Counted from the first letter of the stretch, positions 1-4,535 are shown. The stretch: 4,535 bases of DNA from a virus (IMGVR_UViG_3300029253_000315); one strand, 5' to 3'. Notes: generated by a model not told the origin, from the sequence alone. Numbers and translations are program-made.

Positions 1-510
1 GATGCACCGATCATCTCAATAGGTGCAATATTTTTCGATCCGCAAACCGGAGATATAGGACCGGAATTTAGTAAGACTATCGATCTGGAAACTGCTGGCG
101 GAGTCATTGATCGGGACACCATTAAATGGTGGCTTAAGCAATCACGCGAAGCGCAATCTGCCATTATGACCGATGAAATCCCGTTAGATGATGCACTGTT
201 ACAATTGCGGGAATTTATCGACGAAAACTCCGGTGAATTTTTTGTTCAGGTCTGGGGAAATGGAGCCAACTTCGACAACACAATTTTGCGCCGTTCATAC
301 GAACGGCAGGGGATCCCCTGCCCGTGGCGTTACTACAACGATCGCGATGTACGCACAATCGTTGAGCTGGGGAAAGCCATAGACTTCGATGCCAGAACGG
401 CTATTCCATTCGAAGGTGAGCGCCATAATGCACTTGATGACGCCCGTTACCAGGCAAAATACGTTTCAGCTATCTGGCAAAAACTGATCCCGAGTCAGGC
501 TGATTTTTAA
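1..510 (+). CDS. Phage-associated DEDDh (DnaQ/RNase T-like) 3'-5' exonuclease, 5'-partial: frame 1 is open from base 1, so the N-terminus (including the Exo I motif) lies upstream of the window
   Basis: Frame 1 has no stop from 1 to the TAA at 508-510. The translation contains an Exo II-like motif (WGNGANFDNTIL) and an Exo III-like motif (HNALDDARYQAKY, His-x4-Asp pattern). Its position upstream of xis-int matches the accessory (ea-like) region of lambdoid prophages. Family assignment is from motif recall, not a database search. Confidence 0.6.
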   Translation, partial: DAPIISIGAIFFDPQTGDIGPEFSKTIDLETAGGVIDRDTIKWWLKQSREAQSAIMTDEIPLDDALLQLREFIDENSGEFFVQVWGNGANFDNTILRRSYERQGIPCPWRYYNDRDVRTIVELGKAIDFDARTAIPFEGERHNALDDARYQAKYVSAIWQKLIPSQADF

Positions 511-524
511 TGTTCAACCCTGAT

Positions 525-552
525 CGCCGCTAACCGCATATAGTTAGCGGCG
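525..552 (+). promoter_or_regulatory. Perfect inverted repeat CGCCGCTAAC-N8-GTTAGCGGCG (10-bp stem, 8-nt loop) in the exonuclease/xis intergenic region; possible terminator, RNA processing or protein-binding site
   Basis: Read directly: 525-534 cgccgctaac, loop 535-542 cgcatata, 543-552 gttagcggcg (exact reverse complement). Followed by GTTAT rather than a long T-run. Confidence 0.35.
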
Positions 553-568
553 GTTATGAGATATAGCC

Positions 569-772
569 ATGAGCAGCTTATTTTTAACCGAAGATGAATT
601 GCTAATATTAACGGGCTGCAAATATGCAAGCCACCAGCGAAAATGGTTAATGGAAAACGGGCTTCCGTTCTATACCAATCGTAGTGGCAAACCGATTGTC
701 AGCCGGGATCTATTTACCTGCAATAAAACTTTACCACCACGCGAGGTAGAGCCGAATTTTGGTGCGATCTGA
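569..772 (+). CDS. Small excisionase-like protein (DUF4224-like; putative recombination directionality factor)
   Basis: 67-aa ORF immediately upstream of the integrase, with its stop overlapping the integrase start (TGATG, 770-774). The N-terminal segment LFLTEDELLILTGCK...WLMENGLPFY resembles DUF4224-type proteins typically encoded next to phage integrases. Function inferred from context and recalled family similarity. Confidence 0.5.
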   Translation: MSSLFLTEDELLILTGCKYASHQRKWLMENGLPFYTNRSGKPIVSRDLFTCNKTLPPREVEPNFGAI

Positions 773-1797
773 TGGGAAGACGAAGGAAAAATCCTGAACA
801 CGAAAAATTACCTCCAAATGTATACCCAAATAAATATAGTTATGTATGGAAACCAACATCCAGAGAATCTGTCACACTAACCGCCATCAAGGATGGTTTA
901 GCTGCTTTATGGAAAAAGTATGAGGAAACTGTAAATAATCGCGATCGTGCAATGACATTCGGTCGCTTGTGGGAAAAATTCCTCGCCAGCGCCTATTACA
1001 GTGACCTTAGTCCAAGAACACAAAAAGATTATCTGCAACATCAAAAAAAATTGCTTGCCGTATTCGGTAAGGTACCAGCGGATTCCATAAAACCAGAACA
1101 CATCCGTCGATACATGGACAAAAGAGGGGAGCAGAGTAAAACGCAAGCCAACCATGAAAAAAGCAGTATGTCCCGTGTTTACAGTTGGGGGTATGAGCGA
1201 GGGTACGTCAAGGCTAACCCATGTGCAGGTGTAAGTAAATTCAAGGCCAAAAACCGCGAACGATATGTAACCGACAAAGAATACCAGGCAGTATTAAGCG
1301 TTGCACCTCTTCCTGTTTTTATCGCAATGGAAATTGCCTATCTGTGTGCAGCGAGGGTTTCCGATGTGTTATCGCTGAAATGGGAACAGATTGGAAACGA
1401 CGGGATATTCATCCAGCAAGGGAAAACCGGAAAAAAACAGATAAAAGCATGGAGTCCACGATTACAGGCAGCGATCGAAAAAGCAAAACAGTTACCAAAA
1501 TCTGCCTATGTGATCAGCAATCAATACGGCAACCGATATATGTACAAAGGCTTTAACGAAATGTGGGTAGAAGCAAGAAATCGTGCTGGAAAAATTTCAG
1601 GTATTTTAACCGACTTCACCTTTCATGATCTGAAGGCGAAAGGAATTTCAGACTATGAAGGAAGCAGCCGGGATAAGCAACTTTTCTCTGGTCACAAAAC
1701 CGAAGGGCAAGTGCTAATCTATGACAGGAAGGTTAAAGTTTCACCAACACTTGATGTCCCGTTACCTGAAAATATTCCAAGAAAATATTCCAAGTAA
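772..1797 (+). CDS. int: Lambda-family tyrosine recombinase (prophage integrase), with Lys at the Arg-II position
   Basis: 341-aa ORF. The C-terminus aligns by eye with the lambda Int catalytic region: ARVSD (Arg-I, codon 1354-1356), QGKTGKK, FHDLKAKG (His 1624-1626; Lys 1633-1635 where Arg-II is expected), SGHK (His 1693-1695), LIYDRK (Tyr nucleophile 1720-1722). It sits 52 bp from the 3' end of tRNA-Ser. Confidence 0.9.
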   Translation: MGRRRKNPEHEKLPPNVYPNKYSYVWKPTSRESVTLTAIKDGLAALWKKYEETVNNRDRAMTFGRLWEKFLASAYYSDLSPRTQKDYLQHQKKLLAVFGKVPADSIKPEHIRRYMDKRGEQSKTQANHEKSSMSRVYSWGYERGYVKANPCAGVSKFKAKNRERYVTDKEYQAVLSVAPLPVFIAMEIAYLCAARVSDVLSLKWEQIGNDGIFIQQGKTGKKQIKAWSPRLQAAIEKAKQLPKSAYVISNQYGNRYMYKGFNEMWVEARNRAGKISGILTDFTFHDLKAKGISDYEGSSRDKQLFSGHKTEGQVLIYDRKVKVSPTLDVPLPENIPRKYSK

Positions 1798-1804
1798 TTC
1801 CAAG
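1772..1804 (+). repeat. Three direct repeats of ATTCCAAG (1774-1781, 1787-1794, 1797-1804) spanning the int stop codon; candidate arm-type integrase binding sites of the attachment region
   Basis: Read directly: aatATTCCAAGaaaatATTCCAAGtaATTCCAAGtg. Spacing is 13 and 10 bp. Location is between the int coding end and the tRNA 3' end where the att core is expected. Confidence 0.35.
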
Positions 1805-1849
1805 TGTGATTTTTGTCACTGACTTAATGATGTGTAAGTGATTGAATTT

Positions 1850-1939
1850 TGGCGGAGAGAGGGGGATTTGAACCCCCGGTGGAGTTGCCCCCACTCCGGT
1901 TTTCGAGACCGGTCCGTTCAGCCGCTCCGGCATCTCTCC
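1850..1939 (-). tRNA. serU: tRNA-Ser (anticodon CGA), 90 nt with long variable arm and encoded CCA
   Basis: The reverse complement of 1850-1939 reads GGAGAGATGCCGGAGCGGCTGAACGGACCGGTCTCGAAAACCGGAGTGGGGGCAACTCCACCGGGGGTTCAAATCCCCCTCTCTCCGCCA. It has a 7-bp acceptor stem (GGAGAGA/TCTCTCC), an anticodon stem CCGGT/ACCGG with loop CTCGAAA (anticodon CGA), and a T-arm GGGGG-TTCAAAT-CCCCC. The serU assignment rests on recalled E. coli K-12 synteny (serU-mtfA-asnT). Confidence 0.93.
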
Positions 1940-2032
1940 GTTCAGATGGTTGCCATGATGCCAGGAAATTTGGCATTTTAACAGTCCCTGTCCGTGCAAT
2001 TTTGTTCAAGTGACGAGTTTGCGAGCAAAACG

Positions 2033-2830
2033 ATGATTAAGTGGCCCTGGAAAGTACAAGAATCAGCACATCAAACTGCCCTTCCCTGGCAGGAAGCACT
2101 ATCGATCCCCCTTTTAACGTGTCTGACGGAACAGGAACAAAGCAAATTAGTCACTCTTGCCGAACGTTTTTTACAGCAAAAGCGGCTTGTTCCTTTACAG
2201 GGCTTTGAACTGGATTCATTAAGAAGCTGCCGGATAGCACTTCTATTTTGCCTACCCGTTCTGGAGTTAGGACTGGAATGGCTGGATGGTTTTCATGAAG
2301 TCTTAATTTATCCTGCGCCATTTGTGGTCGATGATGAATGGGAAGACGATATCGGTCTGGTGCATAACCAACGTATTGTTCAGTCAGGTCAGAGCTGGCA
2401 GCAAGGGCCTATCGTTTTGAACTGGTTGGATATACAAGATTCTTTTGATGCTTCTGGTTTTAACCTGATTATTCATGAAGTCGCTCATAAGCTGGACACC
2501 CGTAACGGCGATCGCGCCAGCGGAGTTCCCTTTATTCCGTTGCGTGAGGTTGCTGGCTGGGAACACGATCTTCATGCTGCAATGAACAACATTCAGGAAG
2601 AAATCGAATTGGTTGGCGAGAATGCGGCGAGCATTGATGCTTATGCTGCCAGTGATCCTGCTGAATGTTTTGCCGTACTTTCTGAATATTTCTTTAGCGC
2701 CCCAGAACTTTTTGCTCCTCGTTTCCCTTCATTGTGGCAACGTTTCTGCCAATTTTATCAACAAGATCCTTTGCAGAGACTGCATCGCACTAATGATACA
2801 GACTCGTTTTCGGCGACGAATGTTCATTAA
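2033..2830 (+). CDS. mtfA: MtfA (Mlc titration factor A; DUF980/M90-type zinc peptidase), 265 aa
   Basis: Translation from the ATG at 2033 begins [14 protein letters not shown], which I recognise as the E. coli MtfA N-terminus. It contains an HEXXH zinc-binding motif (IIHEVAHKL). The ORF-track start at 1994 adds 13 residues ([13 protein letters not shown]) that I treat as a spurious upstream extension. Confidence 0.9.
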
Positions 2831-2855
2831 TTAACAACTTTGCAGATTAATTAAC
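2826..2855 (+). promoter_or_regulatory. Duplicated AT-rich element ATTAATTAAC (2826-2835 and 2846-2855) upstream of the asnT promoter; possible UP element or Fis-type activator sites
   Basis: Read directly; two exact 10-bp copies 20 bp apart, each containing the palindrome TTAATTAA. The second copy is centred roughly 70 bp upstream of the predicted transcription start. The first copy overlaps the mtfA stop codon. Confidence 0.3.
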
Positions 2856-2883
2856 CAATTGAAATGACTTATGAAATTTAGTG

Positions 2884-2920
2884 TTGACAGACAAGGTACC
2901 GCTAAGTAATATGCGCCCCG
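2884..2920 (+). promoter_or_regulatory. Sigma70 promoter for tRNA-Asn: -35 TTGACA (2884-2889), 17-bp spacer, -10 TAATAT (2907-2912), GC-rich discriminator GCGCCCCG (2913-2920)
   Basis: Read directly. Consensus -35, optimal spacer and near-consensus -10 lie 18 bp upstream of the mature tRNA 5' end. A GC-rich discriminator is typical of stringently controlled stable-RNA promoters. Confidence 0.6.
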
Positions 2921-2930
2921 TTCACACGAT

Positions 2931-3006
2931 TCCTCTGTAGTTCAGTCGGTAGAACGGCGGACTGTTAATCCGTATGTCACTGGTTCGAGTCCAGTCAGAG
3001 GAGCCA
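2931..3006 (+). tRNA. asnT: tRNA-Asn (anticodon GUU), 76 nt with encoded CCA
   Basis: Sequence TCCTCTGTAGTTCAGTCGGTAGAACGGCGGACTGTTAATCCGTATGTCACTGGTTCGAGTCCAGTCAGAGGAGCCA, with anticodon loop CTGTTAA (GTT), matches the E. coli tRNA-Asn as I recall it. The asnT copy is assigned by adjacency to mtfA. Confidence 0.95.
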
Positions 3007-3168
3007 GATTCAAGTTTTCATGCTTATCTGTACGTTTATATTTGTTTACGATTCAGTAAGTTAGCGTGAAAATCCTTGCCGGTGCGTATCTGGTTTTATC
3101 TCCGCATCGGGATAATTTGGTGGTCAGATCTGGGGTCAGTTTGGTTCGATTCTGGAGTGACCCCCAAA

Positions 3169-4437
3169 ATGTCTTTAAACGATTCTAAAATCCGCAAGTT
3201 AAAATCTTCTTCCCGTCCGGTAAAACTCTCCGACTCTCACGGTCTGTATCTGCTCGTCAATCCGGGCGGTTCACGCATCTGGTATCTCAAATATCGTTTC
3301 AACGGAAAAGAATCCAGAGTCAGTCTTGGCGCATACCCGCTGGTCTCACTGGCAGAAGCCAGGCAACAGCGCGACGGTATCCGCAAGTTACTGGCGCAGA
3401 ATATCAACCCGGCGCAGCAGCGCATGGCAGAGAAAGCCGCCTGCTCCCCTGAAAAGTGCTTTAAAGCGGTGGCGGTGGCGCTGGCCTGGCACAAAACCAA
3501 CAAAAAATGGTCGGCTGATTATGCCGCCCGTATTCTCGCCAGTATGGAAAACCATATCTTCCCGGCGGTTGGTCATTTGCCCGTTGCCAAACTTAAAACG
3601 CAGGATTTCACTGCCCTGCTGAGGGTTATTGAGGATAAGGGCTTTCTGGAAGTCGCGTCCCGCACGCGGCAGCAACTCAGCAACATCATGCGCTATGCCG
3701 TATAGCAGGGGCTTACCGAAAGCAATCCGGCGCAGCATCTGGATGGCGTTGTCTCCTCCCCCGTAAAGAATCACTACCCCGCGTTACCGCTGGAGCGGTT
3801 GTCCGAACTGCTTGGCCGCATCGGTGACTATCAGCAGGGCCGGGAGTTAACCCGGCTGGCGGAGGTGCTGACACTGCACCTGTTCATCCGTTCCAGCGAA
3901 CTGCGTTTCGCCCGCTGGAGCGAGATCGATTTCAGGCACAAAATCTGGACCATCCCCGCCACCCGCGAGGCCATCGACAAAGTTCGGTTTTCGGGGCGTG
4001 GCGCAAAAATGCGTACTCCGCATATCGTACCGCTCTCCCGCCAGGCGATTGCCCTTCTGAAACAGATACAGGAGCTTTCCGGCCATCTGGATCTGGTGTT
4101 TCCCGGCGATCATAATCCGTACAAGCCAATGAGCGAAAACACAACCAACCGGGCGCTGCGCCTGATGGGGTATGACACGAAAACTGAAATCTGCGGGCAT
4201 GGACTCAGGGCAATGGCCTGTAGCGCCCTGGTGGAGTCGGACCTGTGGTCACGCGATACGGTGGAGCGGCAAATGAGCCACCAGGAGCGCAACAGCGTGC
4301 GGGCGGCATATGTGCATAAAGCAGAGCATCTGGAGGCCAGAAAGGCCATGATGCAGTGGTGGTCGGATTATCTGGATGTGTGCCGCGAGGGGTATGTTGC
4401 GCCGTACATTTATGCCCGGCAGCATAAGGCAGCCTGA
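3169..4437 (+). pseudogene. int: P4-family (phage/island-type) tyrosine integrase interrupted by one in-frame amber codon (TAG at 3703-3705); fragments 3169-3705 and 3706/3799-4437 are in the same frame
   Basis: ORF-track entries 3076..3705 and 3799..4437 are both in frame 1, and I translated 3706-3798 with no further stop. The product from the ATG at 3169 starts MSLNDSKIRKLK...GLYLLVNPGGSRIWYLKYRFNGKESRVSLGAYP, an N-terminus typical of P4-type integrases. The downstream part carries catalytic-domain motifs (IRSSELRFARWSEIDF, CGHGLRAMA, VRAAYVHKAEHLEARKAMMQWWSDYLD). It lies immediately 3' of tRNA-Asn in the same orientation, the usual arrangement for asn-tRNA islands. GGAG at 3154-3157 is a plausible Shine-Dalgarno. 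Confidence 0.8.
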
Positions 4438-4535
4438 ATCAGAAATAGCGTAAATCATTAAAACCGGAAAAGCAGATCCTGGGTAATGACTCCAACTTAT
4501 TGATAGTGTTTTATGTTCAGATAATGCCCGATGAC

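What the first reader, a model, noticed from the sequence alone, without database searches (positions are those of the whole stretch)
3007..4535. Compositionally distinct P4-integrase island begins at the asnT 3' end; cargo lies beyond the window
Sequence from about 3170 onward is visibly GC-richer than the prophage and core segments to the left (judged by eye, not computed). It starts with a P4-family integrase directly 3' of tRNA-Asn. In Enterobacteriaceae asn-tRNA sites host the yersiniabactin high-pathogenicity island and other P4-like islands, and P4-like elements are known carriers of variable defense cargo. The 98 bp after the int stop (4438-4535) are AT-rich and likely hold the promoter region of the first cargo gene.
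Basis: partly seen in the sequence, partly recalled or inferred. Interest (0 to 1): 0.5.

Follow-up and report, generated by a model that had tools for sequence, protein, structure and literature searches.

The report
Decayed asnT islet cut by IS1
The GC-rich stretch after tRNA-Asn is the left end of a small, common and already annotated E. coli genomic islet whose P4-type integrase gene is dead (premature stop) and whose "AT-rich promoter region" is really the integrase terminator split by an IS1 insertion, so it is ordinary.

Summary
The measurable observations hold. The integrase gene (3169-4437) is 56.3% GC against 44.7% to its left. It lies 162 bp after asnT, and the tRNA's 3' end is attL. 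K-12 has an empty site, so the element is accessory.

The interpretation needs four corrections:
1. The integrase is a pseudogene. An in-frame TAG at 3703-3705 replaces Gln-179, upstream of the catalytic domain. RefSeq annotates the same gene as "internal stop" in every closest genome opened.
2. It is not the yersiniabactin island (HPI) integrase (71% aa identity). It is 49% identical to P4 Int.
3. The last 54 nt (4482-4535) are the end of IS1. The 44 nt before it hold the left arm of the integrase terminator hairpin, not a cargo promoter.
4. In relatives with an intact right end, the islet is 4.1 kb (dead int plus a 294-aa recombinase-like gene) or 10.4 kb (adding Rhs toxin/immunity). One genome with an intact int has type VI secretion (T6SS) genes downstream. 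None opened carries ybt or recognisable defence genes. In the only public contig with the same int-IS1 junction, IS1 abuts truncated wcaD.

This is a known, decaying islet, and its interest is low.

The parts
2931..3006 (+). tRNA-Asn(GTT), asnT; the integration target of the islet
   Evidence: ARAGORN. Synteny with K-12 mtfA-asnT at 99%.
2991..3011 (+). attL core, CCAGTCAGAGGAGCCAgATTC. This is the last 16 nt of the tRNA plus 5 nt. Relatives repeat it as attR (CCAGTCAGAGGAGCCAaATTC) just upstream of yeeJ.
   Evidence: BLAST of relatives against the K-12 empty site shows K-12 positions 3610-3630 at both ends of the insert. The sequences are printed (L003:19030, L017:22388, L010:16135).
3007..3168 (+). 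Islet DNA between the tRNA and int (42.6% GC). It presumably holds the int leader. One chance-level sigma-70-like match lies at 3015-3042.
   Evidence: In L008 this stretch survives up to an IS1 that replaced int.
3169..4437 (+). P4-family tyrosine integrase pseudogene. It is 422 codons plus the stop, with an internal amber codon. It is 56.3% GC.
   Evidence: Translation. Pfam domains. 49.3% aa identity to P4 Int. 98% identity to the intact 420-aa E. coli protein P0001. The same gene is annotated 'internal stop' in RefSeq genomes.
3466..3477 (+). Tandem duplication of GCGGTG, which adds two residues in frame (AVAVALAW instead of AVALAW). It marks this allele.
   Evidence: present in the window and L003, absent from L001, L002, L004-L007.
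3703..3705 (+). Premature amber stop (TAG) at codon 179. The two non-TAG relatives translated (L005, L006) read Gln there, and the HPI integrase reads His. It lies upstream of the whole catalytic domain (Pfam Phage_integrase maps to residues 234-386).
4438..4481 (+). 44 nt after the int stop. Positions 4465-4481 are the left arm of the int terminator-like hairpin, cut off from its loop and right arm.
   Evidence: The uninterrupted relative L003:16339-16410 folds into a 17-bp stem with a U-tract (-23 kcal/mol, z = -4.2). Window and L003 are identical up to 4481 and diverge from 4482.
4482..4535 (-). The first 54 nt of an IS1 element. This is the inverted-repeat end next to the 3' end of the transposase gene, which reads on the minus strand. 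The window ends inside it.
   Evidence: 100% match to positions 1-54 of the 768-bp IS1 of L022. The matching element is annotated as IS1A family transposase in RefSeq genomes.

Best explanation
Positions 2991-4535 are the left end of a small asn-tRNA genomic islet that is no longer mobile.

How it arose and decayed:
- A P4-family integrase once inserted the element into the 3' end of asnT, by site-specific recombination over the core CCAGTCAGAGGAGCCA(A/G)ATTC. This rebuilt the tRNA and left int next to attL.
- In this lineage a CAG-to-TAG change at codon 179 truncated int, so at most a 178-residue arm-binding fragment without the catalytic domain can be made. The islet therefore cannot excise by means of its own integrase.
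- An IS1 then landed, or an IS1-mediated deletion ended, exactly between the left arm and the loop of the int terminator hairpin, 44 nt after the int stop.

What this means for the finding:
- The AT-rich tail is terminator remnant plus IS1 end, not a cargo promoter.
- Relatives carry very little beyond int: a 294-aa Integrase_1-domain gene, sometimes an Rhs toxin/immunity pair, and T6SS genes in one genome with an intact int. In the only contig sharing this junction nothing of the islet is left.

What is shown and what is inferred:
- Shown: the att repeats, the stop codon, the IS1 identity, the split hairpin and the contexts in relatives.
- Inferred: loss of integrase activity, the order of events, and what follows IS1 in this particular genome.
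For: Composition: (56.3% against 44.7% GC; GC3 0.66 against 0.39).

Att sites and empty site.

Integrase family: Pfam domains, and 49.3% identity to P4 Int over 98% of the length (E = 3e-129).

Nonsense codon:
- Searches show it.
- PGAP flags the same gene as 'internal stop' in H1, H19, H26 and H27.
- The exact 178-aa N-terminal product is indexed in 549 blocks of the public assembly collection.

Intact relatives exist: P0001, 98% identical and 420 aa, and L028.

IS1:
- One search gives 54/54 nt identity to IS1.
- Every closest complete genome matches the window only up to 4481.

Terminator hairpin.

Same junction: L022 is identical to the window over 1893-4535 (the last mismatch is at 1892). 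IS1 there has no target duplication and abuts truncated wcaD.

Islet size and content in relatives:
- 4,138 bp in L003, from int to attR.
- 10.4 kb with a full Rhs gene in L017.
- T6SS tssG/tssF downstream of an intact int in L028.

Prevalence: 523 of 5,426 complete E. coli genomes carry a copy at least 80% identical.
Against: - The window stops 54 nt into IS1, so the rest of this genome's islet is unseen. IS1 could be a simple insertion, with the 9-bp duplication and the remaining islet beyond it.
- L022 lacks the serU prophage that the window has, so the two genomes are not identical.
- No complete E. coli genome in the collection has this junction.
- Loss of function is inferred from the stop codon only. 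An amber-suppressor background, or reinitiation downstream, is not excluded by sequence.
- The consensus terminator scan did not list the hairpin, probably because the T-tract is drawn into the stem. The terminator role therefore rests on the fold and my reading.
Confidence: 0.85

Rival explanations
1. An intact, cargo-bearing island (HPI, pks, an integrative conjugative element or a defence island) lies beyond the window. IS1 is a simple insertion between int and the cargo.
For: - asn-tRNA genes are documented integration sites for HPI (asnT) and pks (asnW/U/V), with 17-bp repeats and P4-type integrases (PMC8209727).
- Some relatives of this integrase family have larger contents: T6SS genes in L028, and large hypothetical proteins plus an ATP-dependent nuclease in NRG 857C at asnV (integrase only 83% identical).
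Against: - The integrase is only 71% identical to the HPI integrase. All 72%-class hits opened are the ybtS-linked gene.
- All contigs with this exact allele (Q179* plus the AV duplication) show the 4.1-kb islet, an Rhs-containing version of it, or IS1 with a deletion.
- L022, which has the same junction, has no cargo.
- None of the five IS1 copies seen in this islet has a target duplication.
Confidence: 0.1
2. The integrase is still functional. The amber codon would be read through, restoring Gln as a supE-type suppressor does, or the two halves would act together, so the islet would remain mobile.
For: - There is a single lesion, and the rest of the frame is intact.
- dN/dS against intact alleles is about 0.10.
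- The codon replaced is Gln, which is what a supE-type amber suppressor inserts (established genetics).
- The catalytic-domain frame downstream is open.
Against: - Other lineages of the same family carry different lesions at other positions: Q370*, W358* and frameshifts. That is the pattern of independent decay, not of a conserved recoding site.
- The low dN/dS is expected if the lesion is recent.
- The window shows no sign of a suppressor or a recoding signal.
- The attR side is probably gone (L022).
Confidence: 0.04
3. The GC step is not a sign of foreign origin. It would reflect only an AT-poor gene lying next to unusually AT-rich neighbours.
For: - The left flank (44.7% GC) is below the E. 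coli average because it is prophage plus mtfA.
- The complete islet in L003 averages 50.7% GC.
Against: - The empty site in K-12 and EA13, and the att direct repeats, prove insertion independently of composition.
- GC3 of 0.66 against 0.39 is a real codon-level difference.
Confidence: 0.01

Closest known systems
Integrase module of the Yersinia high-pathogenicity island (HPI) at asnT in E. coli
   Same: - Same target (the asnT 3' end) and the same core repeat, CCAGTCAGAGGAGCCA.
- Same gene order, tRNA then int on the same strand.
- Same P4-type three-domain integrase of 420 aa.
[quoted passage not shown]
   Different: - Paralogous integrase: 71% aa and 72% nt identity.
- No ybtS downstream. 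The 44 nt after the stop are not in the HPI locus.
- Immobilised by a nonsense codon in int, not by loss of the right repeat.
- Relatives carry Rhs or T6SS genes or nothing, not yersiniabactin genes.
Satellite phage P4 integrase (Int, 440 aa)
   Same: Alignable over 98% of its length at 49.3% identity. Same domain order, and integration into the 3' end of a tRNA gene.
   Different: - P4 uses a leucine tRNA gene (from general knowledge), whereas this element uses asn.
- No P4 replication or capsid-redirection genes (alpha, sid, delta, psu) are annotated in any uninterrupted relative.
- The gene here is a pseudogene.
asn-tRNA Rhs/T6SS islets of E. coli annotated in RefSeq genomes (for example EC6563, 64EVA, ESDR8)
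   Same: - 97.5-99.9% nt identity over 3100-4481 (EC6563 99.9%, ESDR8 97.5%). 64EVA matches the whole window up to 4481 at 99.5%.
- Same attL. EC6563 also has the same allele (TAG plus the AV duplication), as do the draft contigs L018-L025.
   Different: Those genomes continue with the terminator, a 1.3-kb AT-rich stretch and the Integrase_1-domain gene. The window instead has IS1 at +45 after the stop.
IS1-mediated adjacent deletions (classical IS1 behaviour)
   Same: - IS1 copies at five positions in this islet all lack a 9-bp target duplication, and each abuts a different truncated core gene.
- The IS1-wcaD joint of L022 is shared by other genomes with different left flanks.
   Different: Nothing unusual. 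For the window itself the distal flank is unseen.

Membership tests
P4-family (arm-type) tyrosine integrases | N-terminal arm-DNA-binding domain, central core-binding domain and C-terminal catalytic domain, with sequence similarity to P4 Int | tested here: met
   Pfam PF13356 (E = 4e-24), PF22022 (E = 6e-25) and PF00589 (E = 1e-16). tblastn to P4 int gives 49.3% identity over 98% of the length, E = 3e-129.
P4-family (arm-type) tyrosine integrases | Uninterrupted reading frame encoding the catalytic domain | tested here: not met
   TAG at codon 179, with the catalytic domain at residues 234-386. It is a pseudogene of the family, not a functional member.
tRNA-integrated genomic island | Direct repeats of the tRNA 3' end at both borders, and an empty site in some strains | tested here: met
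   attL is in the window. attR is found in relatives L003, L017 and L010. Empty sites are seen in K-12 and EA13. attR of this genome itself cannot be seen.
Yersinia high-pathogenicity island (HPI) | HPI-type integrase followed by ybtS-ybtX-ybtQ-ybtP-ybtA-irp2 and the rest of the cluster | tested here: not met
   71% aa identity to the HPI integrase of L007. ybt genes follow only the 72%-class integrase. The post-int sequence is absent from L007. None of the opened contigs or genomes with the window-type integrase has ybt genes next to it.
pks (colibactin) island | pks integrase at asnW/U/V followed by clbA-clbS | not tested
   No clb gene appears in any opened relative, but the pks integrase was not compared directly. 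Literature context only (PMC8209727).
P4-like phage satellite with a defence hotspot | int plus alpha primase/helicase, the sid/delta/psu capsid-redirection module and cos | tested here: not met
   By annotation and gene calls in uninterrupted relatives (L003, L017-L021, L023-L025), only int, an Integrase_1-domain gene and sometimes Rhs are present. This cannot be tested for the window's own genome beyond 4535.
IS1 | 768-bp element with the terminal inverted repeat GGTAATGACTCC..., encoding InsA/InsB | tested here: met
   Window 4482-4535 matches positions 1-54 of the 768-bp IS1 of L022 at 100%. The same element is 99.6-99.7% identical in L001, L002, L004 and L008, where it is annotated IS1A. 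Only one end lies in the window.

The most novel reading that the evidence does not exclude
The decay may not be neutral. In the complete genomes and contigs opened, this one asn-tRNA integrase family carries at least four independent knock-outs: three different nonsense codons and at least one frameshift. This is despite long-term dN/dS of about 0.1. IS1 has also cut the islet at five different positions, each with loss of distal DNA. That could mean E. coli is repeatedly selected to immobilise or purge this Rhs/T6SS islet, for instance because excision at asnT or integrase cross-talk with HPI/pks att sites is costly. Alternatively, the unseen DNA beyond IS1 could hold uncharacterised cargo.
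Probability: 0.12. Interest if true: 0.3.

Novelty: already known. Interest (0 to 1): 0.08.

Why it matters
It matters little in itself.
- The same islet, with the same dead integrase, is already annotated in hundreds of E. coli genomes.
- The practical lesson concerns the scan. A GC step plus an integrase next to a tRNA does mark an island border, but the reading frame should be checked for stops, and window ends should be checked for IS termini, before cargo is predicted.
- The recurrent, independent inactivation of this integrase, and the recurrent IS1-mediated erosion of the asnT-yeeJ region, are a modest illustration of how tRNA islets get fixed and then whittled away.

Tried and rejected
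- **Source genome.** I searched for the exact int-IS1 junction. None of the 5,426 complete E. coli genomes has it, and there were 0 hits in the GTDB representative genomes. It turned up only in one draft contig, L022, through the look-up of the 178-aa product.
- **HPI hypothesis.** Rejected on integrase identity and downstream genes.
- **'Core gene' hypothesis.** Rejected by the empty sites.
- **Conserved recoding of the stop codon.** Rejected, because diverged alleles carry stops at other positions and read CAG here.
- **Exact 17-mer search for attR.** It failed because the repeat starts one base later. BLAST against the K-12 empty site then found it.
- **Promoter scan of 4438-4535.** Nothing found.
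- **Consensus terminator scan.** It did not list the post-int hairpin, although folding supports it.
- **EA13 as a possible member of the L022 lineage.** EA13 shares the IS1-wcaD joint, but its asnT site is empty. The wcaD joint therefore does not date the event.
- **Literature search for this specific islet (asnT, yeeJ, integrase).** Nothing relevant found.
- **ORF 3076-3705 with a TTG start.** I take this to be an upstream extension of the int frame. The ATG at 3169 matches the start of all homologues.

Full report
**1. What is in the window**

ARAGORN finds tRNA-Ser(CGA) at 1850-1939 (minus strand) and tRNA-Asn(GTT) at 2931-3006 (plus strand). Between them lies mtfA (Pfam Peptidase_M90). 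Window 2800-3011 aligns at 99% to K-12 mtfA-asnT, so the tRNA is asnT.

To the left, 1-1849 is the integrase end of a lambdoid prophage inserted in serU. It holds the 3' part of an exonuclease gene, a DUF4224 protein and a 341-aa integrase.

To the right, a reading frame starts at ATG 3169 and ends at 4437.

**2. The observation**

The composition figures hold up:
- GC is 56.3% for 3169-4437 against 44.7% for 1-2930.
- GC3 is 0.66 against 0.39 for mtfA and 0.38 for the prophage integrase.
- The sliding profile steps up between 3100 and 3300.
- The difference is far beyond sampling noise (z about 6.9 from the counts, my arithmetic).
- The last 98 nt are 36.7% GC.

The contrast is exaggerated, however. 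The left flank is unusually AT-rich. In the uninterrupted relative L003 the complete islet averages 50.7% GC: int 56%, a 1.3-kb middle stretch 40%, the second gene 57%.

**3. The integrase**

The frame has the three domains of arm-type integrases (PF13356, PF22022, PF00589). It is 49.3% identical to phage P4 Int over 98% of its length. 'P4-family' is therefore correct.

But the frame contains an in-frame TAG at 3703-3705, codon 179. The catalytic domain maps to residues 234-386, entirely downstream of the stop. Where relatives lack this lesion they read Gln there (RYAVQQGL).

The allele also has a 6-nt tandem duplication at 3466-3477 (AVAV).

RefSeq annotation flags the same gene as 'internal stop' in the closest complete genomes opened. 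The exact 178-aa truncated product is indexed in 549 blocks of the public assembly collection. This is a common, fixed pseudogene allele, not a sequencing error.

Intact relatives exist:
- P0001, a 420-aa E. coli protein 98% identical.
- The gene in strain ESDR8.

**4. It is an island border**

BLAST of relatives against the K-12 empty site shows that K-12 positions 3610-3630 occur at both ends of the insert. These positions are the last 16 nt of asnT plus 5 nt.
- attL is CCAGTCAGAGGAGCCAgATTC, window 2991-3011.
- attR is CCAGTCAGAGGAGCCAaATTC, lying just before yeeJ.

K-12 and strain EA13 have asnT directly followed by yeeJ.

A copy at least 80% identical occurs in 523 of 5,426 complete E. 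coli genomes.

**5. It is not HPI**

The large class of hits at about 72% nt identity (2,123 genomes) is the HPI integrase. In L007 that gene is followed by ybtS, ybtX, ybtQ, ybtP, ybtA and irp2. The window protein is 71% identical to it. The 44 nt after the int stop are absent from L007.

asn-tRNA genes as targets of HPI and pks, with 17-bp repeats and P4-type integrases, are documented in PMC8209727. The present element is a third, separate user of the same att core.

**6. The last 98 nt**

All closest complete genomes match the window up to 4481 and no further.

Positions 4482-4535 are identical to the first 54 nt of a 768-bp IS1, at the end next to the 3' end of the transposase gene.

In the uninterrupted relative L003, the sequence after the int stop folds into a 17-bp hairpin ending in a U-tract: CGGAAAAGCAGATCCTG-ATTGAC-CGGGATCTGTTTTTTTG (-23 kcal/mol, z = -4.2, with 0 of 200 shuffles as stable). 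I read this as the int terminator.

IS1 sits exactly between the left arm (4465-4481) and the loop. No promoter-like match falls in 4438-4535. The 'cargo promoter' reading is therefore wrong. The simple terminator scan did not list the hairpin, so the terminator role rests on the fold.

**7. What lies beyond**

This cannot be read from the window. Contigs with the identical allele show three contexts:
- **(a)** int*, then a 1.3-kb AT-rich stretch, a 294-aa Integrase_1/Phage_int_SAM_2 protein on the minus strand, attR and yeeJ. This is the most frequent context: 16 further contigs were collapsed into it. The islet is 4,138 bp in L003.
- **(b)** The same plus a full-length Rhs protein (1,396 aa) and a 130-aa presumed immunity gene. 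The islet is about 10.4 kb in L017.
- **(c)** L022, the only contig with the same int-IS1 junction. It is identical to the window from 1893 to 4535. There IS1 has no target duplication (CAGATCCTG | IS1 | CACCAGTCC) and abuts truncated wcaD, followed by wcaC-wza and yegH in K-12 order.

In K-12, asnT and wcaD are about 85 kb apart. The simplest reading of L022 is therefore a large IS1-mediated deletion. A rearrangement cannot be excluded from 10 kb of flank.

The IS1-wcaD joint also occurs in complete genomes, with other left flanks: wcaM in EA13 and manC in ARL09/232. That IS1 is therefore an old deletion hub. EA13 has an empty asnT site, which leaves the order of events open.

L022 lacks the serU prophage, so it is a relative of the source genome, not the source itself.

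Related alleles carry TA genes, HTH genes, an ash-family gene, DUF2169 or Rhs fragments (L005), or T6SS tssG/tssF downstream of an intact int (L028). No ybt, clb or recognisable defence system was seen next to the window-type integrase. An 83%-identical cousin at asnV in NRG 857C has large hypothetical proteins and an ATP-dependent nuclease, which I did not pursue.

**8. Mechanism**

Shown:
- The att repeats.
- The integrase family.
- The nonsense codon upstream of the catalytic domain.
- IS1 in the terminator.

Inferred:
- The islet entered asnT by integrase-mediated recombination.
- It lost its integrase recently, through a single lesion. dN/dS against intact alleles is about 0.10.
- It is now being eroded by IS1.

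Other lineages of the family show independent lesions: Q370* in L005, W358* in L006, and frameshifts in L029 and L017. IS1 sits at five different positions in the islet, always without a duplication and always next to a different truncated core gene. This is the usual fate of fixed tRNA islets.

**9. Verdict**

It is an island border with a P4-type int at asnT. It is wrong on the points that would have made it interesting: a functional integrase, an HPI or defence link, a cargo promoter, and cargo just beyond the window.

The window's two ends both lie in repeats, a lambdoid exonuclease gene and 54 nt of IS1. This suggests that the window is a whole short-read contig, so extension needs new data.

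Novelty: already known. Interest: low.

Noticed in passing
window 3703-3705; L005:14069-15331; L006:14069-15331; L029:7069-8330; L017:12169-13430: The same asn-tRNA integrase family is inactivated by a different lesion in almost every lineage opened: Q179* here, Q370*, W358*, and frameshifts. Pairwise dN/dS is nevertheless 0.07-0.12. Only ESDR8 (T6SS genes downstream of int) and the P0001 contigs have it intact.
   Followed up: partly
L001:13596-14363; L002:13538-14305; L004:16474-17241; L008:6056-6823; L022:11314-12081: IS1 occurs at five different positions within or just after this integrase gene. It never has a 9-bp target duplication, and each time it abuts a different truncated core gene (yeeJ, a PTS IIC gene, shiA, wcaD). 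This points to repeated IS1-mediated deletions eroding the asnT/asnV islets.
   Followed up: partly
L022:12082 onward; L031 and L032 around 6001-6239: An identical IS1-wcaD joint is shared by several genomes whose colanic-acid genes are decayed (wcaC frameshift; wzc and wza internal stops). The left flanks differ: wcaM, manC or the asnT integrase. In L022 this implies loss or relocation of about 85 kb, including the his and O-antigen regions.
   Followed up: partly
window 1-1849 and 1850-1939: This is the integrase end of a lambdoid (Rac-like) prophage in serU. It holds the 3' end of an exonuclease gene with an Rv2179c-like domain, a DUF4224 protein and an intact 341-aa integrase. The same integrase is annotated as frameshifted in 64EVA and ESDR8. 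The two window-versus-L022 differences inside tRNA-Ser (1881, 1892) mark the prophage att overlap.
   Followed up: no
L009 and L010, 1-9850: In contigs with the intact integrase, a second element sits in tandem between asnT and this islet. It carries AlpA, DUF6387, H-NS-like, CoiA_N and RepL-like genes. A partial tRNA/att copy at L010:9816 separates the two.
   Followed up: no
L003:16339-17648: A 1.3-kb, 40% GC stretch with no annotated gene lies between the integrase terminator and the 294-aa Integrase_1-domain gene in the uninterrupted islet. It contains a 15-bp-stem hairpin at 16522-16555 on the minus strand.
   Followed up: no
L006:22019-29331 (NRG 857C, asnV): A cousin islet (integrase 83% identical, W358*) carries two very large hypothetical proteins (3.9 kb and 2.5 kb) and an ATP-dependent nuclease. 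These might form a defence-type module.
   Followed up: no
window 1-165 and 4482-4535: Both window ends lie in repeated DNA: a lambdoid exonuclease gene and 54 nt of IS1, which is the k-1 overlap expected for k = 55. The window therefore looks like a complete short-read contig, not a slice of a longer one.
   Followed up: no
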